A stretch of DNA of 55,861 bases from Nanobdellota archaeon (GCA_027364705.1 DAHXOU010000029.1:1-55861); one strand, 5' to 3'; counted from the stretch's first letter, positions 14,798 to 44,645 are shown. The notes: a model not told the origin generated them from the sequence alone. Made by a program: numbers and translations.

Positions 14798-16051
14798 ATG
14801 AAGATAGTATTAACAACTCTCCCTAAAGAAGGGAGTGCATTCAATTGGGTAACTCCAAAATATTTTTATCCTGATGATTCCAAATTTGTTCCCTTAGGTT
14901 TACTTTCTTTAGCATCTAATCTACCTTCTGAGCATGAGATTACTGTTTTGGATCCAAATAGTTTTTGTTGGTCTATCGATAAAACAATAGAAGAAATTGA
15001 AAAACAAAGACCAGATATTTTAGGTATCTCTGCTGTAACACTTAAGGCATACTCTATGGTTAAAATATTAAAAGAAACTTCGGCTCCTTACAAAATTGTT
15101 GGCGGTCCGCATACAACGAACAATTCTTCATCTATTCTAAATCAGGGAGCAGATGCAACTTTCATTGGACAACTAGCAGATTTAGAATTTGTAGATGCTA
15201 TAAAAAATAAACCCAAAGGAATTGTCTATTGTAATACTAACCTTAATCAAATAAAATTTCCAAACAGAAAGTTTATCGACATAAATTTTTATTATCCTTC
15301 ATCTATATTATTTTCAGCAAATAATAGGATGTCTACCTTTTCTAGTGTTGGTTGTCCACATCATTGTAGTTTTTGCGATGTTCAAACAAAAAAAATTCAA
15401 AGAAAATCTCCAGAATCTCTTTTAGAAGAAATGATCTATTTGCAGAAAATAGGTGCTAAGAGTATTCATCTAATGGATGATAACTTTAATACTAATGAAT
15501 CTTATTTAGAATCAATTTGTTCTGAGATGGATAAAAAAGAATTTTATTCTGAATGGAGTGGGAGAGGTCAGGCAAAAATAAGTCCGCATATAGCTAATAT
15601 GTTAAGTGAACGAAATTTTAAGAGAATTCATGTGGGGTTTGAATCTCTCTCGGATAAAACTTTGAAATTTTTTAATAAACCACAAAACTTTTCTCAGATA
15701 CAAAAATTTTGTGAGACTACAAATAAATATGGAATAGACATCCTGGGATATTTTATTATTGGTGCTCCTACAGAAACCGAAGAAGATAAACATACAATGG
15801 CACAAAAGATAAATGATCTCGGGATAAAATATCCTTATATTAACATTTTACAGCCTCTGCCAAATACCGAATATTATTCTTTCTTATTAAATGAAGGAAT
15901 CTACAAAAAAGATTATTGGGCAGAATATATTTCAAATCCTGTGCCAGATTTTATGTTACCTTTTCCTTACGGAGAAAAAAAGTGGCAAGAAGATGCAGAA
16001 TTTGTAAACGAGATGATAAACTTGTTTAAAGAAAAAAATGAAAATGAATAA
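14798..16051 (+). CDS. B12-binding-domain (class B) radical SAM enzyme
   Basis: 417 aa. N-terminal PLGLLSLASNL...IVGGPHTT, followed by SSVGCPHHCSFC. 14-nt overlap with the downstream GT9 gene. Confidence 0.85.
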   Translation: MKIVLTTLPKEGSAFNWVTPKYFYPDDSKFVPLGLLSLASNLPSEHEITVLDPNSFCWSIDKTIEEIEKQRPDILGISAVTLKAYSMVKILKETSAPYKIVGGPHTTNNSSSILNQGADATFIGQLADLEFVDAIKNKPKGIVYCNTNLNQIKFPNRKFIDINFYYPSSILFSANNRMSTFSSVGCPHHCSFCDVQTKKIQRKSPESLLEEMIYLQKIGAKSIHLMDDNFNTNESYLESICSEMDKKEFYSEWSGRGQAKISPHIANMLSERNFKRIHVGFESLSDKTLKFFNKPQNFSQIQKFCETTNKYGIDILGYFIIGAPTETEEDKHTMAQKINDLGIKYPYINILQPLPNTEYYSFLLNEGIYKKDYWAEYISNPVPDFMLPFPYGEKKWQEDAEFVNEMINLFKEKNENE

Positions 16052-16988
16052 AATTTTAATCATTAAAACAGGTTATTCTGAACTATTAGACAAAGAAAAT
16101 AATTCCCGCAAAGTTAGTCTTGGAGATATTTTAAGAACTACTTGTTTATTGCATTTATTCAAAAAAGATAATGTATCTTGGGTAACCGATGAATCTGCTT
16201 TTCCTCTTCTAGAAAAAAATCCTTATATTCATCGAGTTCTTCCATATGATTTAACAACAACTTTTCAGTTAATGGCCGAAGAATTTGATACCGTGATTAA
16301 TCTTGAAAAAACCCCTGGAATTTGTGCTCTTTCAGATAGAATTCGTGCAAGACGGAATCGGTATGGTTTTACTTTCAATAGTCAATCTGGAACTGCAGAA
16401 CCTTATGCTATGGCTTCGAACATATTAACTGTATGTGCAGACCCCCATCTTAAAAAAACAAATAAAAAAACTGCACAGGAACTTTTATTTGAAACAGTTG
16501 GAGAAACATGGAACAAAGAAGAATATGTTTTGGGATATACTCCAAAAACCGATGAAATATTTGATGTAGGTCTTAATACTCAAGTTGGGCAAAAATGGCC
16601 AACTAAATCGTGGCCTAGTAATCACTGGGATAAATTAGAAAGTTTATTATCGGAGAATAAAATAAAAACAAGTAGACAGGAAAAAAATAACCCCCTTATT
16701 CTCGGAGATTTGTTTAAATATATTGATTGGATAAATTCTTGTAAAGTTCTAGTTAGCAATGATAGTCTTGGATTGCACTTGGGAATTGCTCTGAAAAAAA
16801 AAGTTTTTGGGTTATTTGGTCCAACTCCTCATTTGGAAGTTTATTTTTATGGCCGAGGTAAAGCAATCCTACCCGAACCAGTTCCTTCCTGTCTGCCTTG
16901 TTTTGAAGGAAAATGTCTGAGGGAAAGAAATTGTTTGGAAGATATATCTCCAAATACAATCTATAATGAGGTGTTAAAAATAATTTAA
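16038..16988 (+). CDS. Glycosyltransferase family 9 (heptosyltransferase-family) protein
   Basis: 316 aa. ILIIKTG...GDILRTTCL N-terminus, VSNDSLGLHLGIALKKKVFGLFGPT donor-domain motif, and the C-terminal Cys motif CLPCFEGKCLRERNCLEDISP typical of GT9. The start may be at 16044. Confidence 0.75.
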   Translation: MKMNKILIIKTGYSELLDKENNSRKVSLGDILRTTCLLHLFKKDNVSWVTDESAFPLLEKNPYIHRVLPYDLTTTFQLMAEEFDTVINLEKTPGICALSDRIRARRNRYGFTFNSQSGTAEPYAMASNILTVCADPHLKKTNKKTAQELLFETVGETWNKEEYVLGYTPKTDEIFDVGLNTQVGQKWPTKSWPSNHWDKLESLLSENKIKTSRQEKNNPLILGDLFKYIDWINSCKVLVSNDSLGLHLGIALKKKVFGLFGPTPHLEVYFYGRGKAILPEPVPSCLPCFEGKCLRERNCLEDISPNTIYNEVLKII

Positions 16989-17010
16989 TTATTATTCATT
17001 AAATAATATC

Positions 17011-18849
17011 ATGGAACAAAATAAAAACAATATTAAGGATTACGATAACAATGATATTTTCTGGAAAAATTTTTCCAAAATCCAAAATAATCCTTATCTT
17101 GTTGGCGACTTAAATGATTTCAAATGTTTATTTGTTTTTCCAACGCCATCTGATGATTTTTCAAAAGACTATTATCCTACTCCTCTTGGGACTATGGCCT
17201 CTTTGGTTCGAATGAATAAAGGTCACGCAAAAATAATCACACCTGACGTAAAAAATTATAATCCTCTCGATTTTGCAGGTTATGATTTAATTTGTTTTTA
17301 TCCAATGATTGCTTCTTTTTCTCAGACAATGGATCTTCCGCAAAAAATTAAGAAAGATTTTTCCAATTCAAAAATTTGTTTATTTAACTCAGACCAACAT
17401 CAACATGAGATGATGTTATGTGCACCAAAAGCAAAAAATCTAGCAGAGAAGATTATGCAAAAATATTCTTCTTTAGATTATATCTTAGTAGGAGAATCTG
17501 AAAAATCTTTTATCAATCTCTGTAAAAAAATAAAATTAAAAGAGAATGATTTGGAAACTATTCCTTCTTGCATTTATAGAACTGAAGGAAAAATAAAAGT
17601 GTCTAATCAACCCATCATTCCGGTGGAATTTAAATTTTTACCATTTCCTTCTAGGGATTATTTGGAAGAAAAAATTTCCCCCGAAGGAATAAATTCACTT
17701 TCTCCAAGAATACATTCTAGTCGAGGATGTACTTCACAATGTTCTTTTTGTGCTGAATCTGCTGCAAATATAACTCTCGACGGAAGAAAACAACCCGTTT
17801 TAAACAGAGATATAAATCAGTTTATTGATGAAATAGAATTATTGCAAAAAAATTACGGTGCAGTTTTCTTTAATATTATGGATAGTTCTTTTGAAGATCC
17901 TGCAAAAGAAGGAATCATACGTATGAAAAAATTTTCTGAGGGCATATTAGAAAGAAAAATAGATGCTTCATTTAAGATTCATTTAAGGGCAGAGACAATA
18001 GAAAATCTCGACAATAATTTTCTTGATTTGCTTAAACTTTCTGGAGTAGACATAATCGGTGTCGGGGTTGAATCTGCTCTTGAAGAAGAATTAAAATCTT
18101 ACAAAAAAAGAACAACTGTCAAAAAAAGTATTTGCTCTATGAATAAGTTAGAAGAGCAACACGATTTTTTTGCTATTGTTGGATATATCATGTTTACACC
18201 TGAATTAAAATCTGAAGATTTTCTAACTAAAGTTGAATTCTTAAAAGGAATTAATCGTGGATGGGATTATATGAACCTATCTCATAGTATGCTTATCTTT
18301 CCTGGGAGCGAGTATCATAATCTTTTACAAAAAAGAGGATTAGAAGCAGAACATGATGAATTAGCTTTTTTAATCCCTTACAACTTTAGTGAAGAGAATA
18401 CAAGAAAAATTGCAGATGAAATGAGTAACCTCAAAAAAAAATGTCCTGAAGTGATAAAATTGAATAATGCATTATATGACGCAAAAAATTTGGTAAGTAG
18501 ATATTCTAATAAGATGAATAAACACTTATGGGAAAAAGAATCGGTCTTTTTAAATTTTAAAAAAAATTTATCTGAAATTTTACTAGTTACGGAATCAAAA
18601 TATTCTTCATATACTCACGATCTTTTTGAAGTTATCCAATCATCTTCTTCAGATAATCAAAAAGATTTAATCTTTGAAAAAAATATTTCTCCTTATATTC
18701 CGCCTCTATTAAATAAAACTACAAATTTAATCAACAATGTTCTTGAGGATTTTGAATCTTTTGGGCTTTCAACAAACAAACTTTATCTTAAAACATGGTT
18801 ATCTTTGATAAACACTCAGAAAAATATCGTCGGAGGGAAAAATGTCTGA
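17011..18849 (+). CDS. B12-binding-domain (class B) radical SAM enzyme with a long C-terminal extension
   Basis: 612 aa. SSRGCTSQCSFC after a Rossmann-like N-terminal domain. I recognise no motif in the last 150 aa or so. Confidence 0.8.
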   Translation: MEQNKNNIKDYDNNDIFWKNFSKIQNNPYLVGDLNDFKCLFVFPTPSDDFSKDYYPTPLGTMASLVRMNKGHAKIITPDVKNYNPLDFAGYDLICFYPMIASFSQTMDLPQKIKKDFSNSKICLFNSDQHQHEMMLCAPKAKNLAEKIMQKYSSLDYILVGESEKSFINLCKKIKLKENDLETIPSCIYRTEGKIKVSNQPIIPVEFKFLPFPSRDYLEEKISPEGINSLSPRIHSSRGCTSQCSFCAESAANITLDGRKQPVLNRDINQFIDEIELLQKNYGAVFFNIMDSSFEDPAKEGIIRMKKFSEGILERKIDASFKIHLRAETIENLDNNFLDLLKLSGVDIIGVGVESALEEELKSYKKRTTVKKSICSMNKLEEQHDFFAIVGYIMFTPELKSEDFLTKVEFLKGINRGWDYMNLSHSMLIFPGSEYHNLLQKRGLEAEHDELAFLIPYNFSEENTRKIADEMSNLKKKCPEVIKLNNALYDAKNLVSRYSNKMNKHLWEKESVFLNFKKNLSEILLVTESKYSSYTHDLFEVIQSSSSDNQKDLIFEKNISPYIPPLLNKTTNLINNVLEDFESFGLSTNKLYLKTWLSLINTQKNIVGGKNV

Positions 18850-19924
18850 ATATATTTTTAATTCCCCTATAAGTTTAGGTAACACTTTAATAAAAAATAG
18901 AATTGCATTTCCTCCTCTTGGATGCAATTGGGCAGATCAAGGAGGTTTTGTTAACGAAAAAATAATAAATCATTATCGGGAAATTTCTCGAGGAGGAAGT
19001 GGAATGGTTATTGTAGAAGGTACTTCTGTTTCTCCAGAGGGAAATGGAACCACAAATGGAATTGGATTGTATAATGATTCTTATTTACCTGGAATAAAAT
19101 TAATTCTGTCTGAATTAAAAAAGGAAAAATGTTTTTCTTCTATTCAATTACTCCATTCGGGGGGGCAAGCAAATCCTAATTTTACAGGACATCAACCTAT
19201 CTCTCCTTCTGGAACAACTTGCAATGCTACAGGATTCCCTTCTCATGAAATGAATCTTTCAGAAATAGAAGAGATAAAAAATAAATTTGTTTATTCAGCA
19301 AAACTCGCTGCATCAGCAGGGTTTGATGCTGTGGAATTACATTTAGCTCACGGTTATTTATTACATCAATTTCTTTCCCCTTATACAAATCATAGAAACG
19401 ATAAATACGGGGGAAATTTAGAAAACAGGGCAAGACTAATTACGGATATCATCCACGAGATTAAAATTCAAAATCCTTCTTTATTATTGGGAGCAAGAAT
19501 TTCGGGAGAAGATTATATACCTTCTGGAATAAATAACGAGATGAATAAAACTCTCTTGCCTTTACTTGAAAATTCAGGTATAAATTATTTTAGCGTTACT
19601 GCTGGAATTTATGATACTTCTAAATTAAAGCATGAAGCAATGATGAGGGGAGATTTTTTTAAATATAGTAAAGAGATAAAAGAAATTGTTAATGTTCCTG
19701 TTATTGGTGTGGGAAAGATACTTGATTTACTTACTGCAGAAAAACATTTATACGAACAATCTTGCGATATTGTTGCAATTGGTCGTGGTATGTTAGCAGA
19801 TCCATATATGTTAAAAAAATTTAATCGAAAAGAAGATTATAATCGATGTTCAGAATGTAATCATTGTGCCTATCTGAGGTTTGGTAAAAAAAGTGTAACT
19901 TGTCCTGTTCGAGGATTAGAATAA
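18842..19924 (+). CDS. Old-Yellow-Enzyme-family FMN oxidoreductase ending in an Fe-S-type Cys motif
   Basis: 360 aa. ELHLAHGYLLHQFLSPYTNHRNDKYGG OYE signature. C-terminal CSECNHCAYLRFGKKSVTC (C-x2-C-x2-C-x11-C, nt 19847-19903). GGAGGG Shine-Dalgarno-like site 4-5 nt before the ATG. Confidence 0.85.
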   Translation: MSEYIFNSPISLGNTLIKNRIAFPPLGCNWADQGGFVNEKIINHYREISRGGSGMVIVEGTSVSPEGNGTTNGIGLYNDSYLPGIKLILSELKKEKCFSSIQLLHSGGQANPNFTGHQPISPSGTTCNATGFPSHEMNLSEIEEIKNKFVYSAKLAASAGFDAVELHLAHGYLLHQFLSPYTNHRNDKYGGNLENRARLITDIIHEIKIQNPSLLLGARISGEDYIPSGINNEMNKTLLPLLENSGINYFSVTAGIYDTSKLKHEAMMRGDFFKYSKEIKEIVNVPVIGVGKILDLLTAEKHLYEQSCDIVAIGRGMLADPYMLKKFNRKEDYNRCSECNHCAYLRFGKKSVTCPVRGLE

Positions 19925-19925
19925 A

Positions 19926-20888
19926 ATGTCTAAGAAGGTTTTAATTTTGGGTGGAGCGAGATTCCATGGATTTCAGTTAGCCAAAAAATTATCTTCAGAG
20001 GGAAATTTGGTTTATGTTTTAAATAGGGGAAATTTTCGAGATAAATATCCTTCTTCAATCAACTTCCTAAAAGGAGATAGAGAAGACCCTCTTTTTCTCA
20101 AAGAAATATTTTCTCGCAATTATTTTGATTGCATTTTTGATAATAATGCTTATCTCCCTCGGCAGATAGGATTAATTTCTGATTACATTAAGAATAAATG
20201 TAATCATTATATTTTTACCAGTAGCGCTTCTGTTTATCTTAAAAATTTTTCAGACCATTTATTGACTGAGAAAGAAGCTACAGGGATATCAAATGGAAAT
20301 TATAATCCTTTTTTTGAACAATATGCTTTGAATAAATTTGAATGTGAAAATAAAATTAAAAAAATAGGGGGAAAAAAATACACTATCCTTCGCACCCCAA
20401 ATGTTTTTGGTGAGGGAGACTTTTCTGGAAAACTTATTTTTTTTAATACCCGAATAGAAGACGGAGGAAATATTCTTTTAGAAAAAGAAGTGAATCAAGT
20501 CGGAATAATCTATGTTAATGATCTCGTAAATATTTTAGCTAAAACTATGAACTGTGAAAGATGTTTTGAAAAAACACTAAATATCTCCTGCCCTACTTTT
20601 ATCAATAATTTTTTCAGTGAAATATATGGGGAAAAGTGTTTAGAAAAATTAACTTTCATGTCTTCTAAAGAAATGTGGGGAAATAATTATTCTCTACCTT
20701 TTGAGTGGAATCCTCCTCTTGAAACTTCTCTCATTCAATCATTAATTGGAGAAACGAATTACACTCCTATTTCTGAGTGGGGAAAAAAAACATTAGTTTG
20801 GGAGAAAAATAATCTCGGGGATATTAAAAGACCCGAATTTTCTAATCGGGGAAAAGAATTAAACTTAATTAAAAAATACAATGGTTGA
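19926..20888 (+). CDS. NAD-dependent epimerase/dehydratase (extended SDR)
   Basis: 320 aa. Rossmann N-terminus LILGGARFHGFQLAKKL, TSSASVY, and a catalytic YALNK (YxxxK). Confidence 0.65.
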   Translation: MSKKVLILGGARFHGFQLAKKLSSEGNLVYVLNRGNFRDKYPSSINFLKGDREDPLFLKEIFSRNYFDCIFDNNAYLPRQIGLISDYIKNKCNHYIFTSSASVYLKNFSDHLLTEKEATGISNGNYNPFFEQYALNKFECENKIKKIGGKKYTILRTPNVFGEGDFSGKLIFFNTRIEDGGNILLEKEVNQVGIIYVNDLVNILAKTMNCERCFEKTLNISCPTFINNFFSEIYGEKCLEKLTFMSSKEMWGNNYSLPFEWNPPLETSLIQSLIGETNYTPISEWGKKTLVWEKNNLGDIKRPEFSNRGKELNLIKKYNG

Positions 20889-21762
20889 AAATATAATTCT
20901 AAGAACTTCTTACTCCCAAATTCCAGGGGGGAAATTAAAATCTAATTTCGGGGATTTACTTCGGGTTTCTGTTTTAACAGAATGTATTGGAAAAGATTTT
21001 TTATGGCTGACGGATAAAAGATCCATAAATCTATTAAAATATTTTATAGACAAAGAAAAAATTATTTCTATCGACGATATAGAACCAGATAAAAATTTTA
21101 ATGCAATCAACATATACAATTTAGATAATTATATTTCAACTCCCGATTTATTTAATCGTATTTCTGGGAATTGGAGAGGATACATACCAAATAAAGAAAT
21201 TTTAAAACCAGAAAATAAATTAATAGAAGCTATCTCTCCCTACAAACCGCATAGAATAAATAAAAGTTTGCAAGAATTAATTGTTGAAGGATTGGGTTTT
21301 ACATGGAAAGGACAAGATTACCCGTTTCCTAAAACAGATATAACTGAATTTGTAGATATCGGATTAAACTGGTCTATGCCTTCAGACTGGAAATCTAAAA
21401 CTTGGCCACGAGAATATTGGAACGAACTTGAAGAAATATCAAAAAAAGATTATACTATTTCTTGGCAAGAGGGATTAGATAATATTGATGATTACGTCCA
21501 TTGGTTGTCTTCTTGTAAAATAATAATCACAGGAGAAACTCTCGGACTGCATTTAGCATCTGCTTTAAGAAAAAAAGTTTTAGCTATCCTTGGACCGATG
21601 AAAAATACTGAATTTCCTTATAATCGGTTGACAAGAATCTATCCTGCTGAAAGAGATTGTATGCCTTGTGATTCTCCAATTTGTAATCAAGGAGAAAATT
21701 GTTTAAACGAAATAAAACCGCAACAAATTAAGAAGATTATCGATGGTATACTTAGTACCTAA
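20881..21762 (+). CDS. GT9-like glycosyltransferase (shorter paralogue)
   Basis: 293 aa. GDLLRVSVL N-terminal motif, ITGETLGLHLASALRKKVLAILGP, and CMPCDSPICNQGENCLNEIKP. Parallels the genes at 16038 and 36857. Confidence 0.6.
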   Translation: MVENIILRTSYSQIPGGKLKSNFGDLLRVSVLTECIGKDFLWLTDKRSINLLKYFIDKEKIISIDDIEPDKNFNAINIYNLDNYISTPDLFNRISGNWRGYIPNKEILKPENKLIEAISPYKPHRINKSLQELIVEGLGFTWKGQDYPFPKTDITEFVDIGLNWSMPSDWKSKTWPREYWNELEEISKKDYTISWQEGLDNIDDYVHWLSSCKIIITGETLGLHLASALRKKVLAILGPMKNTEFPYNRLTRIYPAERDCMPCDSPICNQGENCLNEIKPQQIKKIIDGILST

Positions 21763-21765
21763 ATA

Positions 21766-22847: not shown

Positions 22848-23476
22848 TGGAAATAAAAATAACTGTTAAAGAACTTATAGAATTTGAGAATAAAATTGCT
22901 CATTTATGGGAAGATAAAAAAATACCTTATCCAATTCATCTATCTGGGGGAAATGAGAAACAATTGATAGAAATATTTGGTGAGATAAACAAGGGAGATT
23001 ATATTTTTTCTACCCATCGTTCTCATTACCATTATCTTCTAGCAGGAGGTTCTCCTGAAAAATTAGAAAAAATTATTCTCGAAGGAAATAGTATGCATGT
23101 TTTTGATAAAGAACTGAATTTTTTAACTTCTGCAATTGTATCCGGTACACCAACAATAGCTACAGGAGTTGCTTTGGCATTGAAATTAAAAAAAAGTGAA
23201 AAAAAGGTTTGGTGTTTTGTCGGAGACGGAGCAGAAGATGAAGGGCATTTTTATGAAGCAGTTAGATATGTTGATGGACATGATCTACCCTGCACATTCA
23301 TTTTAGAAGACAATGATCGTTCTGTTGAAACTCCGAGGGAAGTTAGATATGGAAAATCCCGAATTAAATGGCCTGATTGTGTAAAGATATATAATTATAA
23401 AATTACTTACCCTCATGTTGGAACAGGAAAGTGGGTAGATTTTTCTGGAACTAAAGCAGGAGGTTCTTCTTTCTAA
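22847..23476 (+). CDS. Short E1-alpha-like thiamine-diphosphate-binding subunit
   Basis: 209 aa. FVGDGAEDEGHFYEAVRYVDGHDLPCTFILEDNDRSV matches the GDG...NN-type TPP motif of 2-oxoacid dehydrogenase E1 alpha, with EDND in place of ENN. TAATG coupling at both ends. Confidence 0.7.
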   Translation: MEIKITVKELIEFENKIAHLWEDKKIPYPIHLSGGNEKQLIEIFGEINKGDYIFSTHRSHYHYLLAGGSPEKLEKIILEGNSMHVFDKELNFLTSAIVSGTPTIATGVALALKLKKSEKKVWCFVGDGAEDEGHFYEAVRYVDGHDLPCTFILEDNDRSVETPREVRYGKSRIKWPDCVKIYNYKITYPHVGTGKWVDFSGTKAGGSSF

Positions 23477-38755: not shown

Positions 38756-39294
38756 ACAAAGCAATTTTCTTGGACAGAGACGGAACAATAAATGTAGATA
38801 AACATTATATTCATAAAGTAGAAGATTTGGAATTGATTCCGTTTGCAACAGAAGGGATGAGACTTCTTTCTAAAAATTATTTGTTGATTATTGCGACTAA
38901 TCAATCTGGAATAGGAAGAGGATTATATTCTTTAGAAGATTATTTTGTGGTTAGGGAAAAACTAACTCAAATTTTAAATCAAGAAAAAATAAAAATTTCG
39001 GGAGAATATTATTGTCCTCATCACATGGAAGGAGTTGGAGAATATAAACTAGATTGTAATTGCAGAAAACCTAAAACAGGAATGTTAGAACGGGCTTCAA
39101 AAGATTTTAATTTGGAATTAAATGAATGCTGGATGATTGGAGATAAATTATCTGATATAATGGCTGGAAAAAATGCAGGATGTAAAACAATACACGTTCT
39201 TAGCGGACAAACAGAAAAACCAATTTTGTCCGCAAATTTTGTTGCTAAGAATCTTTTAGATGCAGCAGATTATATTCTGAAAAATAATTACTGA
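38752..39294 (+). CDS. gmhB: D-glycero-D-manno-heptose 1,7-bisphosphate phosphatase (HAD-IIIA)
   Basis: 180 aa. AIFLDRDGTIN, ATNQSGIGRG, the Zn-site pattern CPHH...CNCRKPKTGM, and GDKLSDIMAG. ATGA overlap with the upstream gene. Confidence 0.85.
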   Translation: MNKAIFLDRDGTINVDKHYIHKVEDLELIPFATEGMRLLSKNYLLIIATNQSGIGRGLYSLEDYFVVREKLTQILNQEKIKISGEYYCPHHMEGVGEYKLDCNCRKPKTGMLERASKDFNLELNECWMIGDKLSDIMAGKNAGCKTIHVLSGQTEKPILSANFVAKNLLDAADYILKNNY

Positions 39295-40229
39295 TACTTT
39301 TTCTTATCCATCAAAGAAATTCTTTTCTTCAATTCCTTGAGCCTAACAGAGTAAGTACCCTTTTTCTCTACGGCAATTCCTGCAGAATAATTTCCTAATT
39401 TTGCCGCTTCTTCAAGAGATGAACCCGCGGCAAGTGCAAGTGCAACTGTTGCAACAACAGTATCTCCTGCCCCTTGAACATCGTAAACTTCCTGAGCATA
39501 AGTTGGAATGTCGGTTACATTATCCGAGAATAATGTCATTCCTCTTTCTCCTCTTGTAACCAAAATATTTGTTTCCAAATTTTTTTGAAGTTTCTTTCCA
39601 GCATTGTAAACTTTATTCACCCTTGACATTTCTAAAGCCTCTTTTTCATTAGGAATAACTAACAGAGTGCGCTTGTAAAGATTTTTATTGGAGGGTTTCG
39701 GATTTACTACTATCTTTTTTTTATACTCTTCCAGAAAATTCATGGTATCTTTGTTTACTGCTCCCTTATCATAATCCGAAATTACAATTATGTCTGCTCT
39801 CTCAGCATATTTTTTAAGAGTCTCTTTTGTTTCTTTGGAAAACACTTTCTTGGATTTTTCTTCGTGGTCAATCCTTATTAATTGCTGACCATTGCCGATA
39901 ATTCTTATTTTAGAAACAGTCATAGAATCTTCATCGAGACGATATTCAATTTTATTTTCTTTAAGAATATTTTTCAAAATCTCTGCTTCAGGATCTTTTC
40001 CTATAAATGAAAATATACTTACTTCTCCACCAAGAGAAGAAATATTTGACGCAACATTTCCTGCACCCCCCATTTTAGATTGTTCATATTTTTTTACTAC
40101 TACTGGAACTGGTGCTTCGGGGCTAATTCTACTAACTTCTCCGTCAATATACTTGTCAAGCATTATATCTCCGACAACTACTATCCTTTTATTATCAAAC
40201 TCTTTTAGAATATCTAGTAACGTTCCCAT
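39288..40229 (-). CDS. hldA: D-beta-D-heptose 7-phosphate kinase (stand-alone HldE domain I, PfkB family)
   Basis: 313 aa. IVVVGDIMLDKYIDGEVSRISPEAPVPVV and GGAGNVASNISSLGG match the HldE/RfaE kinase domain. GAGDTVVA is the PfkB motif. Confidence 0.85.
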   Translation of the reverse strand: MGTLLDILKEFDNKRIVVVGDIMLDKYIDGEVSRISPEAPVPVVVKKYEQSKMGGAGNVASNISSLGGEVSIFSFIGKDPEAEILKNILKENKIEYRLDEDSMTVSKIRIIGNGQQLIRIDHEEKSKKVFSKETKETLKKYAERADIIVISDYDKGAVNKDTMNFLEEYKKKIVVNPKPSNKNLYKRTLLVIPNEKEALEMSRVNKVYNAGKKLQKNLETNILVTRGERGMTLFSDNVTDIPTYAQEVYDVQGAGDTVVATVALALAAGSSLEEAAKLGNYSAGIAVEKKGTYSVRLKELKKRISLMDKKKYQ

Positions 40230-40326: not shown

Positions 40327-41934
40327 GTGGAAGAGATAAAAGGAGAACTAAGGGAACCAATATCCAATAAAGAAATTGAAAAAAGGATAAAAAAATTGTC
40401 CGGATTTTTCTTTGGATGGGTTAAGGATAATTATGACAAGGCATTTATTGCAGTTTTAGTCTTATCTGTTTTAATCAGAATCTATTTTCTATCAATTTCC
40501 ATTCATCAGCCTGTTTGGTGGGATTCGGCAGATTATCTTACTGAAGCTAAAGTTCTTGCAGGAAACCTTAATATTCCTTACTACTTTACTCCCCGTAGAA
40601 CTTTTCTTCTTCCATTACTTTGGGCTGGTTTGCTGAATCTTGGATTCGAAGAAATTTCGTTCAGAATTTTAGAATTAATATTTTCAATAGCAGTAGTTCC
40701 TGCAACTTACTTAATTGGAAAACAATTATTTGATAAAAAAATCGCTTTGATTGCCTCTTTTTTATCTTCGGTATTCTGGATGTATCTTTTTTATTCTAAC
40801 AAACTTATGACCGAAATTCCGACTCTTGCGCTTTTTTTATTTTCAGTTTATTTTTTCTGGCAGGGTTATACAAAGAAAAATGAAAAAATGTTTATCTGGT
40901 TCGGAATTTTTCTAGGACTAGCGTTTTTGGCAAGAGCAGGAACAATTGTAATGTTTGCTATCTTTCCAATATTCCTTTTAATTACAGAAAAATTGAAATT
41001 CATTAAGAGAAAATATTTGTGGTTCGGAGTATTGGCTGTTCTTGCAATTATGGCCTTCTTTTTTATTTTCACTTCTATAAAACAAGATGTAAATGCAATT
41101 TCTTACTTTTTGGCATTAACTCCCGAAACCAGCGGAGGCAATCCAAGGTTTTCTAACCTTCTTGGATTTCAAGGTATATCTGAATATTTTTCTTTAATGC
41201 CTCATTATTTTGGTTGGGTTCTTTTATCCATTTTTGGAATTAGTGTAATAATCTTCTTGTTTGAATTATTCCTAAGTTTTGACATGATTATAAAAAGAAA
41301 AGATACTTCTCGAGATAAATATCTTTTTTTATTCCTTCTTGCATTTGTCCCGTTTATATTTCAGGCAATGTTTTATCATCATACAGAAGACAGATACCTA
41401 ATGAATGCATTCCCTGCATTTTTTCTTATTCTTTCAATAGGCCTAGTAAAAATTGCAGAGAAATTAAAAAAATACAAAAAATATCTCGGATTATTTTTTA
41501 TATTGCTAATCTTAGCAGTCGGCGCATTTCAGCAGATTACTCAAGCAAATGCAATTATCGAGAGCAAAATTAATTCATATCAGGAAGTAAAAGATTCTGC
41601 AATATGGATTAAAGAAAATTCTAATACAACAGCTATCGTTTTCTCAGCTTCAGTTCCTCAGACTACTTATTACGCCGAAAGAGAAACTTATAATTTCCTT
41701 ACAGAAGATATTAACCAATCTTATTTCGAACAAAAAATGTATGATTTAAAACCAACTTTTTTAGTTTTGTCAGTATTCGAACCTCATTCACAATGGATTT
41801 ATACTTATCCAGAAAAACATCCTAATTTATTAATTCCTGTAAAAGCATATAATCAAAATGACCAACCTGTTTTAATTGTCTATCAATTTAATTATGCAGC
41901 TATGTCTGATTTAATTTCAAATGAAACCAAATAA
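40327..41934 (+). CDS. GT-C-fold membrane glycosyltransferase (ArnT / PMT_2 / GT39-GT83-like)
   Basis: 535 aa with a GTG start. About 11 TM helices with WWDSADYL in the first external loop, then a soluble C-terminal domain of about 130 aa. This layout is typical of lipid-phosphate-sugar-dependent GT-C enzymes. Confidence 0.7.
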   Translation: MEEIKGELREPISNKEIEKRIKKLSGFFFGWVKDNYDKAFIAVLVLSVLIRIYFLSISIHQPVWWDSADYLTEAKVLAGNLNIPYYFTPRRTFLLPLLWAGLLNLGFEEISFRILELIFSIAVVPATYLIGKQLFDKKIALIASFLSSVFWMYLFYSNKLMTEIPTLALFLFSVYFFWQGYTKKNEKMFIWFGIFLGLAFLARAGTIVMFAIFPIFLLITEKLKFIKRKYLWFGVLAVLAIMAFFFIFTSIKQDVNAISYFLALTPETSGGNPRFSNLLGFQGISEYFSLMPHYFGWVLLSIFGISVIIFLFELFLSFDMIIKRKDTSRDKYLFLFLLAFVPFIFQAMFYHHTEDRYLMNAFPAFFLILSIGLVKIAEKLKKYKKYLGLFFILLILAVGAFQQITQANAIIESKINSYQEVKDSAIWIKENSNTTAIVFSASVPQTTYYAERETYNFLTEDINQSYFEQKMYDLKPTFLVLSVFEPHSQWIYTYPEKHPNLLIPVKAYNQNDQPVLIVYQFNYAAMSDLISNETK

Positions 41935-42406
41935 TAAAATAAAAACATTTTCTGAAATAAGTGATGTTGTAGCAGATATAAGAAAAAAAAATTTAGGAGA
42001 AAAAATAGTCACCACCAACGGAGCTTTTGACTTATTTCATCTTGGTCATTTATATTCTCTTATGGAAGCAAAAAAATACGGAAATATTCTTGTCGTAGGA
42101 TTAAATTCAGATTCTTCAATAAAAAAATATAAATCTCTTGATAGACCAATAGTTCCTCAAGAAGAAAGAGCAGAAATTTTGTCTGCACTTGAAATTGTCA
42201 ATTATGTTGTTATGTTTGATGAACCTGACAATCTGAATTTCTTGGAAGCAGTAAGACCTGATTATCATGTAAAATCAAAAACTGGATACAAAGGAATAGA
42301 AGAAGAAGTTATAAAAAAATATGGTGGCCATATAATCTTAATAGATGATGTTCAAGAGATGTCTACAACAAAAAGAATAGAGAAGATTCTCCGTTTATAT
42401 CATTAA
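41921..42406 (+). CDS. hldC: D-beta-D-heptose 1-phosphate adenylyltransferase (stand-alone HldE domain II, cytidylyltransferase fold)
   Basis: 161 aa. TNGAFDLFHLGHLYSL (HxGH), VVGLNSDSSIKKYKSLDRPIVPQEERAEILSALEIVNYVVMFDE. Closely parallels HldE/RfaE domain II. Confidence 0.85.
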   Translation: MKPNNKIKTFSEISDVVADIRKKNLGEKIVTTNGAFDLFHLGHLYSLMEAKKYGNILVVGLNSDSSIKKYKSLDRPIVPQEERAEILSALEIVNYVVMFDEPDNLNFLEAVRPDYHVKSKTGYKGIEEEVIKKYGGHIILIDDVQEMSTTKRIEKILRLYH

Positions 42407-43453
42407 TTTTTTAATTTCTTCAAAAACATTTTCAACACTAACCCCTTCCATTATTTTTCGTATTTCTTCTTTGCTCATCTTAATTGGTTTTCCATCATAT
42501 TTGTAATATTCAAGTTTATTCTTTAAAATTGCAGGATTTTTTACGGTAATAAACGGTTTATTATAGGGATAAACTGTTTCATTGAAAGTTGGTGTTTCTA
42601 TAACTAACTGGTTACTTACTTCCATTGCAGAAGCTATATGCATTAAAGCTGTATCAACACTCAGAAAAATTTTACATCTTCTAGCAACTGATGCTGTTTC
42701 TTTGATATTGTTTGTTTTTACTATTTTTATTCTGTTTCTATCTATTTCACTTATTTTTTCGTTTTCTTTTTCTTCCTCTTTTCCAAACAATAAAATAGAA
42801 ATGTCTTCGTTAAAGTTAAGTAATTTTTCTGATAGTTCTATATAATTTTTTAATGGCCATCTTCTACTGGATAGATTTTTAGTAGAACCAGAACCAATAT
42901 GAAATCCAATAATCTTTTTCCCACCAAGATTGTTCTCTCTAATAAATTCTTTCGCAAATTCCATCTCTTCCCCCGACAGAAAAATTTCATACTTGGGATT
43001 CTTTAATTTCCTTTTTCCTAAGAGCCCAATAAAATCAAGGTTATTTTCCGCACATTGTTTTGAATAATCTTCTTCAATAAAATTATTAATAAGAATATTT
43101 TCTACAAAATTATTTTTCCCATATCTATGACTAAATCTTTTTTTGGCTCCAATAAGTTTAGAGATTATTCTGTATTCTATTTTACTCTGGGGGAAAGTAT
43201 TTATTGAGATATCATAATTTTCTTTTCTTAATTTTCTGCAGAAATCCATCGTCTTTATCGGGCCCTCTTTGATCATATTAAAATAGATTACCTTCGTTAC
43301 ATATGGATTATTTTTCAATATTTCTTCAGCCCCCTTCCACATTACAAGGACATTAATTTCTGCTTCGGGGAAATTATTTCTTAATTCGTGCAAGAGCGGA
43401 GTTGCCATAATAGTGTCTCCTATTCCTGCCAGTGAGATAACAATAATCTTCAT
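42395..43453 (-). CDS. Glycosyltransferase family 9 (heptosyltransferase-family) protein
   Basis: 352 aa. MKIIVISLAGIGDTIMATPLL N-terminus, IGFHIGSGSTKNLSSRRWP, and FLSVDTALMHIASAM donor-domain motif. Confidence 0.8.
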   Translation of the reverse strand: MKIIVISLAGIGDTIMATPLLHELRNNFPEAEINVLVMWKGAEEILKNNPYVTKVIYFNMIKEGPIKTMDFCRKLRKENYDISINTFPQSKIEYRIISKLIGAKKRFSHRYGKNNFVENILINNFIEEDYSKQCAENNLDFIGLLGKRKLKNPKYEIFLSGEEMEFAKEFIRENNLGGKKIIGFHIGSGSTKNLSSRRWPLKNYIELSEKLLNFNEDISILLFGKEEEKENEKISEIDRNRIKIVKTNNIKETASVARRCKIFLSVDTALMHIASAMEVSNQLVIETPTFNETVYPYNKPFITVKNPAILKNKLEYYKYDGKPIKMSKEEIRKIMEGVSVENVFEEIKKLMI

Positions 43454-43532
43454 TATCCTCTAAAAATTAACTCATTTAAATCCTTTTCCCGAGCATATAT
43501 AATTTTATAAATAAAATACTATCCCTATTAAA
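43454..43532. promoter_or_regulatory. Divergent promoter region with two TATA-box candidates
   Basis: TTTAAA (43475-43480) lies about 25 nt from the minus-strand start at 43453. TTTTATAAATAAAA (43504-43517) lies about 24 nt from the ATG at 43533. Confidence 0.45.
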
Positions 43533-44645
43533 ATGGTAAGTTCCATACGTTTAGCAACAAAAATACTCTCTTTTCAATTATTTCGGGCATTCGGATTTCC
43601 AAAGATAATGCCTCTTAATGTAACTATTGCTGTTACAAATAAATGTACTTCGCTATGTAAAACTTGCAATCTTGGTAGAATTTATCTTAAAAATCCAAAG
43701 ATCGCAAATAATGATTTGACTTTGGAAGAATATAAAAAAATTTTTAGGGATATAGGGAAGAATAATGTTTACTGGTTTGTATTTTCTGGAGCAGAACCAT
43801 TTATGAGGAATGACCTTGTCGATGTCTGTAAATCTGCATATGACTATTGTAAACCTAATGTTATTGTTTTACCAACAAATTCTCTTCCTTCAAACATTGT
43901 TTCGAGAGTTAAAGAACTTTTAGAGCATTGCAGAGGAACAATAATCAACGTAAATCTTTCTCTCGACGGAGTTGGCAAGGACCATGATGAAGTCAGAGGG
44001 ATTAAAGGAAATTTTGAAAAGGTAATTGGTTTATTCAGTGAACTTAAACAATTAAAAAAAGAATACAAAAATTTTGAACTTAACATTCACACGGTAATCT
44101 CTAAATTTAATTCAGACAAAATAAATGAATTGCATAACTTTGTTAAGGAAAAATTAAAACCAGATGCACATATTACTGAAATTGCAGAGAACAAAGCTGA
44201 AATAGAAAATTTGGATTTGAGTATAACTCCTTCTCCTAAAGATTATCAAAAAACTATAGACATTCTTTCCGACCAATTAAAGAAAGAAAAATTTTACGGA
44301 TTTACAAAAATGAAACAAGTATCAAGACTAATCTATTATCAGCTTGTTAAAAAAATAATGCAAAGACAAACACAGGTAATTCCTTGTTATGCTGCAATAA
44401 ATGAAGTTCAAATATCTCCTGCGGGAGAAGTCTGGACTTGTTCTCTTTTGGGGAAATCCTTGGGTGATCTTAGGAAAAATGATTACAGTTTCAGAAAAAT
44501 ATGGGGAAGTCAGAGAGCAAAAATTCTTAGAAAAAGCATAAAGAATAAAGAATGCTGGTGTCCGGTTGCTAATATATCTTACACGAATATGATTTGTCAT
44601 CCATCATCATCTTTAAAAATGATCTACAACTTCCTCTTTAAATGA
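43533..44645 (+). CDS. Radical SAM enzyme with a twitch/SPASM-like C-terminus
   Basis: 370 aa. VTNKCTSLCKTC plus SGAEPF. C-terminal C-x12-GEVWTC and CWC. Confidence 0.8.
   Translation: MVSSIRLATKILSFQLFRAFGFPKIMPLNVTIAVTNKCTSLCKTCNLGRIYLKNPKIANNDLTLEEYKKIFRDIGKNNVYWFVFSGAEPFMRNDLVDVCKSAYDYCKPNVIVLPTNSLPSNIVSRVKELLEHCRGTIINVNLSLDGVGKDHDEVRGIKGNFEKVIGLFSELKQLKKEYKNFELNIHTVISKFNSDKINELHNFVKEKLKPDAHITEIAENKAEIENLDLSITPSPKDYQKTIDILSDQLKKEKFYGFTKMKQVSRLIYYQLVKKIMQRQTQVIPCYAAINEVQISPAGEVWTCSLLGKSLGDLRKNDYSFRKIWGSQRAKILRKSIKNKECWCPVANISYTNMICHPSSSLKMIYNFLFK

What the first reader, a model, noticed from the sequence alone, without database searches (positions are those of the whole stretch)
14798..44645. 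Every GT9 (heptosyltransferase-family) gene is physically paired with a radical SAM gene
Seen in sequence:
- GT9 at 16038 is overlapped by the B12-rSAM at 14798 and followed by the B12-rSAM at 17011.
- GT9-like at 20881 is followed 32 nt later by the SPASM-rSAM at 21795.
- The GT9-GT2 fusion at 36857 is preceded by the B12-rSAM at 35279.
- GT9 at 42395c is divergently paired with the SPASM-rSAM at 43533.

That is four of four. Three of the GT9s share an unusual N-terminal G(A)LGD[ILV]LR[TV]S motif, which suggests one expanding paralogue family.

Inference: there is a repeated transfer-then-radically-modify (or modify-then-transfer) module. Alternatively, these GT9-fold proteins use a radical-SAM-generated donor or acceptor rather than canonical ADP-heptose.
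Basis: partly seen in the sequence, partly recalled or inferred. Interest (0 to 1): 0.75.

Follow-up and report, generated by a model that had tools for sequence, protein, structure and literature searches.

The report
GT9 transferases in radical-SAM-rich glycan island
All four heptosyltransferase-like genes do sit beside radical SAM genes, but mostly because a quarter of this archaeal sugar-coat island is radical SAM; only one of them belongs to a truly conserved, apparently undescribed transferase-plus-radical-SAM cassette shared by tiny archaea and many anaerobic bacteria.

Summary
The adjacency is real at the stated coordinates. All four ORFs pass the Pfam GT9 cut-off, and all 12 rSAM genes carry CX3CX2C. 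But 12 of 48 genes are rSAM, so 4-of-4 has p = 0.03-0.09 by permutation, and two of the GT9s share one operon.

Comparative genomics splits the pattern in two:
- **Cassette.** GT9_16038 belongs to a cassette conserved in DPANN archaea and many anaerobic bacterial phyla. It holds this GT9, two SPASM rSAMs (21795 and 24002 types), an E1-alpha/beta-like TPP enzyme and a B12-rSAM. The GT9 abuts an rSAM in 61 of 80 loci, with a median gap of 1 nt.
- **Inserted paralogue.** GT9_20881 sits in an inserted segment. Its relatives are fused to OYE or SDR domains.
- **Heptose module.** GT9-GT2 (36857) and GT9 (42395c) flank a standard NDP-heptose module (GmhB, split HldE, PMT_2). Their rSAM neighbours are kept only in close relatives, and sister islands have none.

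The GD motif is canonical GT9. The LRT[ST] extension and a C-terminal Cys4 knuckle do mark a distinct subclade. No curated family or paper was found for the cassette.

The parts
13526..14740 (+). Unknown 404-aa soluble protein that travels with the cassette in DPANN loci
   Evidence: No Pfam hit. Orthologues lie next to the cassette in 11-12 archaeal loci. Profile-profile similarity to GT4 is weak and inconclusive (hhalign E = 0.0017, probability 16%).
14798..16051 (+). Class-B (B12-binding) radical SAM; first gene of the 10-gene operon, overlapping GT9_16038 by 14 nt
   Evidence: PF04055 69.5 bits and PF02310 34.4 bits. CX3CX2C at residue 186. Orthologues (52-61% identity) occur in only 4 of 80 cassette loci. 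No curated NCBIfam family reached.
16038..16988 (+). Cys-knuckle GT9 glycosyltransferase, the conserved cassette member
   Evidence: PF01075 38.7 bits. 1912 homologues. Identity is 56-67% in most DPANN loci and 46-51% in bacteria. AF2 plus Foldseek points to WaaC, WaaF and TibC. D30, K190, D242, H247 and C285/288/293/299 are 95-100% conserved in 81 sequences.
17011..18849 (+). 612-aa radical SAM (class-B-like); first gene of the inserted segment
   Evidence: PF04055 38.7 bits with no Pfam B12 hit. Partial BchE and other class-B NCBIfam matches. No orthologue in any of the 80 cassette loci.
18842..19924 (+). Old-yellow-enzyme-type FMN oxidoreductase; partner of GT9_20881
   Evidence: PF00724 215 bits. 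A GT9_20881-family protein (P0370) carries this domain fused to its N-terminus.
19926..20888 (+). SDR epimerase/dehydratase-like protein; partner of GT9_20881
   Evidence: PF01370 47.5 bits. A more distant GT9_20881 relative (P0436, E = 1.3e-22, 30% identity) is fused to an SDR domain.
20881..21762 (+). GT9 paralogue (Cys-knuckle clade) occupying the slot before SPASM_21795
   Evidence: PF01075 27.9 bits. It has its own small family: 12 representatives at 35-49% identity. It is sister to the 16038 family with 93.5% bootstrap. No orthologue in the 80 cassette loci.
21795..22847 (+). SPASM radical SAM 'A', core cassette member
   Evidence: PF04055 66.5 bits and PF13186 32.2 bits. Orthologues in 63 of 80 loci; it is the gene directly after the GT9 in 26. 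Weak sequence match to BlsE (7vob).
22847..23476 (+). Short E1-alpha-like TPP-binding subunit
   Evidence: PF00676 70 bits. Similar to PDH E1-alpha structures. Present in 45 of 80 loci; full-length E1_dh in bacterial cassettes.
23476..24000 (+). Short E1-beta-like (Transket_pyr) subunit
   Evidence: PF02779 39.6 bits. Present in 43 of 80 loci. Bacterial versions add Transketolase_C.
24002..24880 (+). Small SPASM/twitch-like radical SAM 'B', core cassette member
   Evidence: PF04055 38.6 bits; PF13186 20.4 bits, just below the cut-off. Orthologues at 43-61% identity in 55 of 80 loci; it is the gene directly after the GT9 in 26.
35276..36817 (+). Class-B radical SAM at the head of the heptose operon
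   Evidence: PF04055 57.3 bits and PF02310 51.5 bits. 80%-identical orthologues lie upstream of GT9-GT2 in L096 and L099 only. Absent next to GT9-GT2 in L082, L083, L097, L009 and L012.
36857..38755 (+). GT9-GT2 fusion glycosyltransferase
   Evidence: PF01075 37.5 bits and PF00535 71.3 bits. 413 homologues; the 120 listed are 58-79% identical, mostly from DPANN archaea. The conserved neighbour is PMT_2.
38752..39294 (+). GmhB-type heptose 1,7-bisphosphate phosphatase
   Evidence: TIGR00213 157.4 bits, above the 149.6 cut-off.
39288..40229 (-). HldE domain-I-type heptose-7-phosphate kinase
   Evidence: TIGR02198 317 bits, below the 345 cut-off, E = 1e-94.
40327..41934 (+). PMT_2 (GT-C) membrane glycosyltransferase; constant partner of both heptose-module GT9s
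   Evidence: PF13231 54.9 bits. Nine TM-like segments. Adjacent to GT9-GT2 or GT9_42395c orthologues in L082, L083, L092, L093, L095-L097, L099 and L100.
41921..42406 (+). HldE domain-II-type heptose-1-phosphate nucleotidyltransferase
   Evidence: TIGR02199 141.6 bits, below the 181.5 cut-off, E = 1.5e-41. It lies next to GT9_42395c orthologues even in Verrucomicrobia.
42395..43453 (-). Canonical-type GT9 (no Cys knuckle)
   Evidence: PF01075 62.9 bits over nearly the whole profile. TIGR02195 72 bits full length, below cut-off. 722 homologues.
43533..48872 (+). Five-gene operon divergent from GT9_42395c: SPASM rSAM, SDR, methyltransferase, unknown 434 aa, AP-superfamily phosphodiesterase
   Evidence: Pfam. 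The whole operon is conserved opposite the GT9 in the P0122 locus and L093, and its proximal part in L100. In L095 only a truncated rSAM orthologue at the contig end is visible. rSAM orthologues are 70-78% identical. Absent in L092 and L094.

Best explanation
The window is most of a ~50-kb AglB-linked surface-glycan island of a DPANN archaeon (Woese-/Pacearchaeota type). It is unusually dense in radical SAM genes, and that density is why every GT9 touches one. Two different things lie underneath.

**(1) Cassette operon, 14798-24880.** This is a 10-gene operon built on a cassette shared by DPANN archaea and many anaerobic bacterial phyla. The cassette holds:
- a Cys4-knuckle GT9 (16038 family);
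- SPASM rSAM A (21795);
- an E1-alpha/beta-like TPP enzyme (22847/23476);
- SPASM rSAM B (24002);
- a class-B rSAM.

Most likely (inferred, not shown) these soluble enzymes tailor a nucleotide-linked sugar without oxygen. The steps would be radical oxidation or rearrangement, TPP-dependent two-carbon branching and B12-dependent C-methylation. The GT9 would be the dedicated transferase for that sugar. A segment inserted here (17011-21762) adds a second module: rSAM, OYE, SDR and the paralogous GT9_20881.

**(2) Heptose module, 35276-48872.** This is a standard NDP-heptose module: GT9-GT2 fusion, GmhB, split HldE, PMT_2 and a second GT9. Its constant partners are the heptose-activation genes. 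Its flanking rSAM genes are lineage-specific add-ons, probably heptose or glycan tailoring.
For: **Island context.**
- 12 of 48 genes are rSAM, and AglB, a GT4 phosphotransferase and a flippase are present.
- In-window significance is weak.

**Cassette.**
- 80 loci from archaea, Omnitrophota, Planctomycetes, Desulfuromonadales/'Deltaproteobacteria', Nitrospirae, Saccharibacteria and others carry GT9_16038 orthologues at 45-67% identity.
- Per-locus presence: SPASM_21795 type 63, SPASM_24002 type 55, E1 subunits 45 and 43, B12-rSAM 43.
- The GT9 abuts an rSAM in 61 of 80 loci against a 38% background (binomial p = 3e-12). In 51 loci the downstream rSAM is co-directional, with a median gap of 1 nt.
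- Catalytic and donor-site residues are conserved.

**Sugar-nucleotide setting.**
- DegT aminotransferase, SDR, NUDIX and GT2 genes occur in cassettes.
- OYE-, SDR- and NUDIX-GT9 fusions exist among relatives of GT9_20881.
- All cassette proteins lack TM segments.
- AviB1/AviB2 and Pau11/Pau12 are the proposed precedent for E1-like C-acetyl branching of sugars (PMC4753412).

**Heptose module.**
- GmhB and both HldE halves lie between the two GT9s.
- The same module without internal rSAM genes occurs in L095, L099 and L100.
- rSAM-free sister islands: L082, L083, L092 and L097.
Against: - No biochemical data exist for any cassette protein. No curated family or paper was found, so the proposed chemistry rests on analogy.
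- The minimal cassette has no nucleotidyltransferase or dehydratase, so the starting sugar is unknown.
- The two lineage-specific pairs are still conserved in several relatives: 35276 in 2 of 7 GT9-GT2 contexts, and the 43533 operon in 4 of 6 GT9_42395c contexts. A functional link there cannot be excluded.
- The in-locus background (38%) is itself inflated by the cassette.
- Mirror-tree correlations (r = 0.68-0.77) may only reflect shared phylogeny.
Confidence: 0.6

Rival explanations
1. First reader's model. Four instances of one repeated GT9 + radical SAM functional unit (transfer then radically modify, or the reverse), produced by expansion of a single paralogue family. The GT9s would use rSAM-made substrates instead of ADP-heptose.
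For: - 4 of 4 adjacency.
- Three GT9s share GDxLR[TV][ST] and a Cys knuckle and fall in one superclade.
- Pairs at 35276/36857 and 42395c/43533 are retained in some relatives.
- The glycosylate-then-rSAM logic has precedents in HpnI/K/J and Cds (PMC13459092).
Against: - The partner rSAMs belong to different classes and are not orthologous to one another.
- The GT9-GT2 family lacks an rSAM neighbour in 5 of 7 contexts, and GT9_42395c in 2 of 6.
- GmhB and HldE sit between these two GT9s.
- Each paralogue has its own broad orthologue family, so the duplications are ancient.
- 16038 and 20881 lie in one operon, and permutation p is only 0.03-0.09.
Confidence: 0.12
2. Pure density artefact. No GT9 in the window has any functional tie to radical SAM enzymes, and adjacency simply reflects a quarter of the genes being rSAM.
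For: - Permutation p = 0.035-0.094.
- 57% of other non-rSAM island genes also abut an rSAM.
- Fisher p = 0.17 against other glycosyltransferases.
Against: The GT9_16038 family keeps SPASM rSAM neighbours across two domains of life: 61 of 80 loci, median gap 1 nt.
Confidence: 0.08
3. The cassette does not make a donor sugar. Instead GT9_16038 first glycosylates a lipid or carrier, and the SPASM rSAMs then rearrange the attached sugar, for example by ring contraction to a carbocycle as proposed for HpnJ and Cds. Alternatively the cassette matures a peptide (RiPP).
For: - The B12-rSAM 14798 has HpnJ as its best, sub-threshold NCBIfam hit, and a polysaccharide deacetylase lies nearby at 24870c.
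- 24002 has weak MoaA and QueE-like matches.
- Precedent in PMC13459092.
- SPASM enzymes are often peptide maturases.
Against: - HpnJ score is 86 against a 577.6 cut-off.
- No RRE/PqqD domain, no precursor-sized ORF and no room between the genes.
- All cassette proteins are soluble.
- Cassettes are embedded in flippase/GT/aminotransferase glycan loci.
Confidence: 0.2

Closest known systems
LPS core heptosyltransferases WaaC/WaaF/WaaQ (CAZy GT9)
   Same: - GT-B fold (Foldseek E = 2e-12 to WaaC).
- N-terminal GD motif, K-W-P and D-x4-H donor-site motifs.
- GT9_42395c and GT9-GT2 sit with GmhB and HldE genes, as LPS heptosyltransferases depend on ADP-heptose.
   Different: - All four score far below the NCBIfam equivalog cut-offs.
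- The hosts include archaea and Saccharibacteria, which (own knowledge) have no LPS.
- The 16038 and 20881 families have a ~15-residue insertion before GD.
- All three Cys-knuckle GT9s share a C-terminal CxxCx4C motif (a fourth Cys follows in 16038 and 20881) that the E. coli enzymes lack.
TibC/BAHT iron-containing protein heptosyltransferases
   Same: GT9 fold. TibC is a structural neighbour of the GT9_16038 model and its PDB entries describe it as iron-containing. The window subclade has a fully conserved Cys4 cluster.
   Different: No sequence-level match. TM-score is only ~0.57. No autotransporter substrate is nearby. Equivalence of the Cys sites and metal binding were not tested.
AviB1/AviB2 and Pau11/Pau12 E1-like enzymes that add a two-carbon branch to sugars
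   Same: A two-subunit E1-alpha/E1-beta-like TPP enzyme encoded inside a sugar-tailoring cluster (PMC4753412).
   Different: Those enzymes belong to actinomycete antibiotic pathways without rSAM partners. The DPANN versions are truncated (209 + 174 aa). Orthology and activity were not tested.
Radical SAM sugar-tailoring enzymes (BlsE; BtrN, GenK, AprD4 from own knowledge)
   Same: SPASM/twitch and class-B rSAM enzymes acting on sugars or nucleoside sugars. BlsE is the only solved structure matched by SPASM_21795.
   Different: The match is weak (33 bits) and no curated family is reached. Those enzymes are not known to travel with a GT9.
HpnI/HpnK/HpnJ and calditol synthase Cds (glycosylate, then radical SAM rearrangement)
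   Different: Those systems use a different GT family (GT2 for HpnI). HpnJ similarity is far below cut-off. No lipid substrate is indicated here.
Archaeal N-glycosylation (Agl) gene islands
   Same: AglB/STT3, a GT4 phosphotransferase, a Wzx-like flippase and many GTs in one island. The same architecture occurs in sister DPANN islands L082, L083 and L092.
   Different: 12 rSAM genes plus the inter-domain cassette. The sister islands have none.

Membership tests
GT9 (Pfam PF01075 / CAZy GT9) | Profile HMM score above the gathering cut-off (22 bits) | tested here: met
   Scores are 38.7, 27.9, 37.5 and 62.9 bits. The matches for 16038 and 20881 cover only the C-terminal ~65 residues of the profile.
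GT9 (Pfam PF01075 / CAZy GT9) | GT-B fold closest to solved heptosyltransferases | tested here: met
   For GT9_16038 only: AF2 pLDDT 88.9 and pTM 0.87. Foldseek top hits are WaaC, 3tov, WaaF and TibC, with probability 1.00. The family profile hits 3tov at 1.6e-9 and WaaF at 7e-6.
GT9 (Pfam PF01075 / CAZy GT9) | N-terminal GD (catalytic Asp of WaaC, own knowledge) and C-domain donor-site motifs | tested here: met
   G-D, H247 and A251 are invariant across the four window GT9s, their relatives and E. coli WaaC/F/Q/U. D30, K190, D242 and H247 are 99-100% conserved in 81 orthologues.
GT9 (Pfam PF01075 / CAZy GT9) | ADP-heptose as donor | not testable with these tools
   Context only. GmhB and HldE genes lie next to 36857 and 42395c. 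Heptose genes lie within 10 kb of only 1 of 80 GT9_16038-family loci.
LPS heptosyltransferase I/II/III equivalogs (NCBIfam TIGR02193/02195/02201) | Score above the curated equivalog cut-off | tested here: not met
   The best score is 72 against 134.6, for 42395c. The others score 31-48 bits.
Radical SAM superfamily | CX3CX2C cluster motif and a PF04055 hit | tested here: met
   The motif is present in all 12. PF04055 is above cut-off in 11; 32082 scores 25.3 against 29.5 but has SPASM at 36.1.
Class B (cobalamin-binding) radical SAM | N-terminal B12-binding domain (PF02310, at least 32.1 bits) | tested here: met
14798 scores 34.4 and 35276 scores 51.5.
SPASM radical SAM | C-terminal SPASM domain (PF13186, at least 21.5 bits) | tested here: met
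   21795 scores 32.2 and 43533 scores 25.1. 24002 scores 20.4, just below the cut-off.
RiPP maturation system | Precursor peptide gene and an RRE/PqqD-like recognition domain | tested here: not met
   No RRE/PqqD Pfam hit in any rSAM. Operon gaps run from -14 to +32 nt, leaving no room for a peptide gene.
HpnJ-type hopanoid head-group radical SAM | NCBIfam TIGR03471 above 577.6 bits | tested here: not met
   14798 scores 86.4, 35276 scores 70.7 and 17011 scores 41.8.
ADP-heptose pathway (GmhA, HldE, GmhB) | All enzymes present and above curated cut-offs | tested here: inconclusive
   GmhB reaches TIGR00213 at 157.4, above 149.6. The HldE kinase scores 317 against 345 and the nucleotidyltransferase 141.6 against 181.5, both just below cut-off. 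No SIS/GmhA domain is present in the window.
E1-like (AviB1/AviB2-type) sugar-branching TPP enzyme | Two subunits with E1_dh and Transket_pyr domains inside a sugar cluster; C-acetyl transfer to a keto-sugar | tested here: inconclusive
   The domains are present. Activity and orthology to AviB1/B2 were not tested.

The most novel reading that the evidence does not exclude
The 16038-type GT9, the two SPASM rSAMs, the E1-like TPP enzyme and the B12-rSAM form a previously undescribed, horizontally mobile cassette specific to anaerobes. It would build and install a new higher-carbon or C-branched sugar, possibly derived from an ADP-linked sugar such as heptose, in the surface glycans of DPANN archaea, Saccharibacteria, Omnitrophota, Planctomycetes and Desulfuromonadales/'Deltaproteobacteria'. 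The Cys4 knuckle of the GT9 would be a metal site needed for working with the rSAM partners.
Probability: 0.35. Interest if true: 0.75.

Novelty: new variant of a known kind. Interest (0 to 1): 0.55.

Why it matters
DPANN archaea and candidate-phylum bacteria live attached to other cells, and their surface glycans are essentially uncharacterised. A tightly conserved cassette shared across two domains (46-67% identity for the transferase in nearly all loci) points to an unknown sugar building block made by oxygen-independent radical chemistry. It also defines a distinct, probably metal-binding branch of the heptosyltransferase family.

The finding also offers a caution. In rSAM-dense islands, 'n of n' adjacency is weak evidence, and only cross-genome synteny separates real modules from crowding.

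Tried and rejected
**Searches that found nothing useful.**
- Exact-sequence look-up of the window GT9 found nothing, because the database copy is 314 aa against the 316-aa ORF translation.
- The first genome scan with a single protein found no confirmed relative. It had to be repeated with an alignment.
A viral-contig scan with the family alignment found nothing. The genomic context of GT9_20881 relatives is therefore unknown apart from the fusions.
- NCBIfam gave no family above cut-off for any GT9, rSAM or E1-like protein.
- Literature searches on GT9/heptosyltransferase plus radical SAM, SPASM, transketolase, DPANN or Woesearchaeota returned nothing relevant.
- The anammox S-layer glycan paper has no link to this cassette.

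**Technical failures.**
- The first bootstrapped tree timed out and a second run crashed. I redid it with a lighter NJ and bootstrap procedure.

**Ideas rejected.**
- I had expected E. coli WaaF to share the C-terminal Cys motif. Alignment A3 shows that it does not.
- A RiPP reading was rejected: there is no RRE domain and no peptide ORF.
- A canonical transketolase supplying sedoheptulose-7-phosphate was rejected: the Pfam hits are E1_dh and Transket_pyr, not Transketolase_N, and the proteins are short.
- The suggestion that unk_13526 is a GT-B enzyme is inconclusive.

Full report
**What is in the window**

The 55.9-kb window (GC about 30%) carries about 48 real ORFs.
- Pfam shows SecDF at the left end. 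At the right end are AglB/STT3, a GT4-family phosphotransferase and a SpoIIM-like gene.
- Between them lie a Wzx-like flippase, many glycosyltransferases and sugar-nucleotide enzymes, and 12 radical SAM (rSAM) genes.
- The closest relatives of its proteins come from MAGs labelled Nanoarchaeota, Woesearchaeota or Pacearchaeota.
- This is therefore a DPANN archaeal surface- or N-glycan island.

**Check of the observation**

| ORF | PF01075 bits (cut-off 22) | Note |
|---|---|---|
| 16038 | 38.7 | match covers only the last ~65 residues |
| 20881 | 27.9 | match covers only the last ~65 residues |
| 36857 | 37.5 | plus a GT2 domain at 71 bits |
| 42395c | 62.9 | match over most of the profile |

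- 16038 and 20881 are nevertheless collinear with E. coli WaaC/F/Q.
- An AlphaFold model of 16038 (pLDDT 88.9) has WaaC, Veillonella GT9 3tov, WaaF and TibC as its best PDB neighbours.
- Gaps to the neighbouring rSAM genes are -14, +22, +32, +39 and +79 nt.
- All 12 rSAM ORFs carry CX3CX2C.
- 17011 has no detectable Pfam B12 domain.

*Is it more than chance?*
- With 12 rSAM among 48 genes, 4 of 4 has permutation p = 0.035 for the whole window, 0.066 for the island and 0.094 for the finding span.
- 57% of the other non-rSAM island genes also touch an rSAM.
- GT9s do not differ significantly from the other glycosyltransferases (4 of 4 against 3 of 6, Fisher p = 0.17).
- 16038 and 20881 lie in one 10-gene operon (14798-24880; gaps from -14 to +32 nt), so the four cases are not independent.
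- On its own, the window gives only weak evidence.

**Cross-genome test, GT9_16038**

This protein has 1912 homologues. A profile scan of GTDB species genomes gave 186 relatives, of which 80 loci were kept.
- Identity is 56-67% in most DPANN loci.
- Identity is 45-51% in Omnitrophota, Planctomycetes (including Scalindua), Geobacteraceae and 'Deltaproteobacteria', Nitrospirae, Nitrospinota, Saccharibacteria, Firestonebacteria, Spirochaetes and Ignavibacteria.

Mapping window proteins onto these loci shows a recurrent cassette:

| Cassette member | Loci of 80 |
|---|---|
| SPASM_21795-type rSAM | 63 |
| SPASM_24002-type rSAM | 55 |
| E1-alpha-like subunit | 45 |
| E1-beta-like subunit | 43 |
| Class-B rSAM | 43 |
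| GT2 (bacteria only) | 36 |

SDR, NUDIX and DegT aminotransferase genes also occur in some loci.

- The GT9 abuts an rSAM in 61 of 80 loci. Other non-rSAM genes of the same loci do so in 299 of 790 cases (binomial p = 3e-12).
- The gene after the GT9 is a 21795-type rSAM in 26 loci and a 24002-type rSAM in 26.
- In 51 loci the downstream rSAM is co-directional. The median gap is 1 nt and there are 20 overlaps.
- Distance matrices of the GT9 and the two SPASM families correlate (r = 0.68-0.77, Mantel p below 0.001). This is consistent with co-inheritance but is not specific.
- The link is therefore real for this family. Its conserved partners are the SPASM rSAMs at 21795 and 24002 and the E1-like pair.

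**GT9_20881**

- No orthologue of rSAM_17011, OYE_18842, SDR_19926 or GT9_20881 occurs in the 80 loci.
- In several archaeal loci (for example L002-L004) the 16038 orthologue is followed directly by the 21795 orthologue.
- Window 17011-21762 is therefore an insertion into the cassette.
- GT9_20881 has its own small family of 12 representatives at 35-49% identity.
- That family is sister to the 16038 family with 93.5% bootstrap support.
- One family member, P0370, is fused to an OYE domain. More distant relatives are fused to an SDR epimerase (P0436) or a NUDIX domain (P0497).
- These are the kinds of genes just upstream in the window, so the demonstrable partners of 20881 are sugar-nucleotide enzymes.
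- Its position before SPASM_21795 is inherited from the cassette layout.

**GT9-GT2 (36857) and GT9_42395c**

NCBIfam identifies three heptose-activation genes between these two GT9s:
- GmhB at 38752, above cut-off;
- an HldE kinase half at 39288c, E = 1e-94;
- an HldE nucleotidyltransferase half at 41921, E = 1.5e-41.

*GT9-GT2 contexts.* The family has 413 homologues; the 120 listed are 58-79% identical.
- It is followed by PMT_2, directly or after heptose-activation genes, in every context fetched by look-up (L082, L083, L096, L097, L099).
- An 80%-identical orthologue of the B12-rSAM 35276 precedes it only in the two closest relatives, L096 and L099.
- In L082, L083, L097, L009 and L012 no rSAM abuts it. 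In L082, L083 and L097 the upstream neighbour is a GT4, and L082 and L083 have no rSAM within 10 kb.

*GT9_42395c contexts.* The family has 722 homologues.
- It keeps the divergent operon (SPASM rSAM, SDR, methyltransferase, unknown protein, phosphodiesterase) in 4 of 6 contexts: the P0122 locus, L093, L100 and L095. In L095 only the truncated rSAM gene at the contig end can be seen. The rSAM is 70-78% identical.
- It lacks the operon in a Pacearchaeota island (L092) and in a verrucomicrobial locus (L094), where only the nucleotidyltransferase remains next to it.

*Tally.* Further GT9 genes in these sister islands also lack rSAM neighbours. Counting GT9 genes in the loci fetched by look-up (L082-L100 and the P0122 locus):
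- 6 abut an rSAM;
- 8 do not;
- 1 sits at a contig end and cannot be scored.

These two pairings are lineage-level synteny around a standard NDP-heptose module. For these two genes, the idea that they avoid canonical activated heptose is contradicted by context.

**The motif and the 'one paralogue family' idea**

- G-D is invariant in all four window GT9s and in E. coli WaaC, WaaF, WaaQ and WaaU. It is the canonical GT9 motif. From my own knowledge, Asp13 of WaaC is the catalytic base.
- The extension GDxLR[TV][ST] and a C-terminal CxxCx4C(x5C) knuckle are specific to 16038, 20881, 36857 and their families.
- The four Cys of 16038 are 95-100% conserved in 81 orthologues.
- The 16038 and 20881 families also share a ~15-residue insertion before GD.
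- An NJ tree puts the three families in one superclade with moderate support (59.5%). GT9_42395c groups with WaaF/WaaQ-like sequences.
- Each window gene nests within its own family, so these are old paralogues and not a local expansion.

**How it most likely works**

*Shown:*
- the cassette membership;
- the tight operonic coupling;
- the intact GT9 catalytic motifs;
- the soluble nature of all cassette proteins;
- the sugar-nucleotide setting (DegT, SDR, NUDIX, GT2, flippase, PMT_2);
- the absence of RiPP hallmarks.

*Inferred by analogy:*
- The SPASM rSAMs oxidise or rearrange a nucleotide-linked sugar. BlsE is the only structural relative found by sequence.
- The E1-like enzyme adds a two-carbon unit from pyruvate, as proposed for AviB1/AviB2 and Pau11/Pau12 (PMC4753412).
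- The class-B rSAM C-methylates. This rests on my own knowledge of GenK- and Fom3-type enzymes.
- The Cys-knuckle GT9 transfers the product.

The opposite order is a live alternative: glycosylate first, then rearrange radically, as proposed for HpnI/K/J and Cds (PMC13459092). The starting sugar is unknown. Heptose genes lie near the cassette in only 1 of 80 loci.

**Novelty**

No NCBIfam model reaches its cut-off for the GT9s, the rSAMs tested or the E1-like proteins. Six literature searches found no description of a GT9-rSAM-E1 cassette. The kind of system is known: an rSAM-tailored glycan pathway. This particular inter-domain cassette and the Cys-knuckle GT9 branch appear undescribed in what I could search.

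**Verdict**

The literal observation is correct but weakly significant.
- one real, conserved GT9-rSAM module;
- one paralogue riding in it;
- two heptose-module GT9s with lineage-specific rSAM neighbours.

Interest is 0.55, carried by the cassette rather than by the '4 of 4' pattern.

Noticed in passing
window 16038-16988 (C285, C288, C293, C299); also 20881-21762 (C260...) and 36857-38755 (C309...): A C-terminal CxxCx4C(x5C) Cys knuckle is conserved at 95-100% in 81 GT9_16038 orthologues. It is absent from E. coli WaaC/F/Q/U and from GT9_42395c. TibC, described as an iron-containing heptosyltransferase, is a structural neighbour. This is a possible metal site.
   Followed up: partly
window 17011-21762: A four-gene segment (rSAM, OYE, SDR, GT9 paralogue) is absent from all 80 related cassette loci, so it looks like an insertion. 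Relatives of the GT9 occur fused to OYE, SDR or NUDIX domains (P0370, P0436, P0497).
   Followed up: partly
window 22847-24000; L027 11982-13125: DPANN cassettes use a truncated E1-like pair (209 + 174 aa), while bacterial cassettes use full-length E1-alpha/beta (~335 + 350 aa). A Firestonebacteria MAG carries the short type at 72% and 64% identity to the window, which suggests inter-domain transfer.
   Followed up: partly
window 13526-14740: A 404-aa protein with no Pfam hit accompanies the cassette in 11-12 DPANN loci. Profile-profile similarity to the C-terminal half of GT4 is weak (hhalign E = 0.0017, probability 16%).
   Followed up: partly
window 46414-47718: A 434-aa protein with no Pfam hit sits inside the conserved SPASM/SDR/MT/unknown/phosphodiesterase operon. 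By eye it has a Pol-beta-type nucleotidyltransferase-like motif (GGFGRGEG...DYDIY).
   Followed up: no
window 10438-13431: An acetolactate-synthase-like TPP enzyme (TPP_enzyme_N/M/C) lies next to a class I/II aminotransferase. This is a second possible sugar-branching system, YerE-like by my own knowledge. AT_12247c and TPP_10438 homologues also occur beside the cassette in L006 and L009.
   Followed up: no
window 38752-42406: GmhB and both HldE halves are present, but no SIS/GmhA isomerase is present in the window. Close relatives carry a fused HldE (L099) or two nucleotidyltransferase copies (L095, L100).
   Followed up: partly
whole window; L082, L083, L092, L097: One 56-kb contig of a small-genome DPANN archaeon carries 12 radical SAM genes. 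Sister AglB islands with the same GT9-GT2/PMT_2 core show none in the stretches fetched.
   Followed up: partly
window 2499-2984 and 50717-51253: Two YdjM-family membrane hydrolase-like genes bracket the island. YdjM-like genes also sit directly upstream of the GT9 in several 'Deltaproteobacteria' cassettes (for example L064, L075, L078).
   Followed up: no
window 30570-33284 and 28894-30607: ORF pairs overlap: 30570-32132c with 32082-33284 by 51 nt (divergent), and 28894-29451c with 29390-30607c by 62 nt. GTG or TTG starts are involved, so the start codons are probably mis-assigned by the mechanical ORF caller.
   Followed up: no
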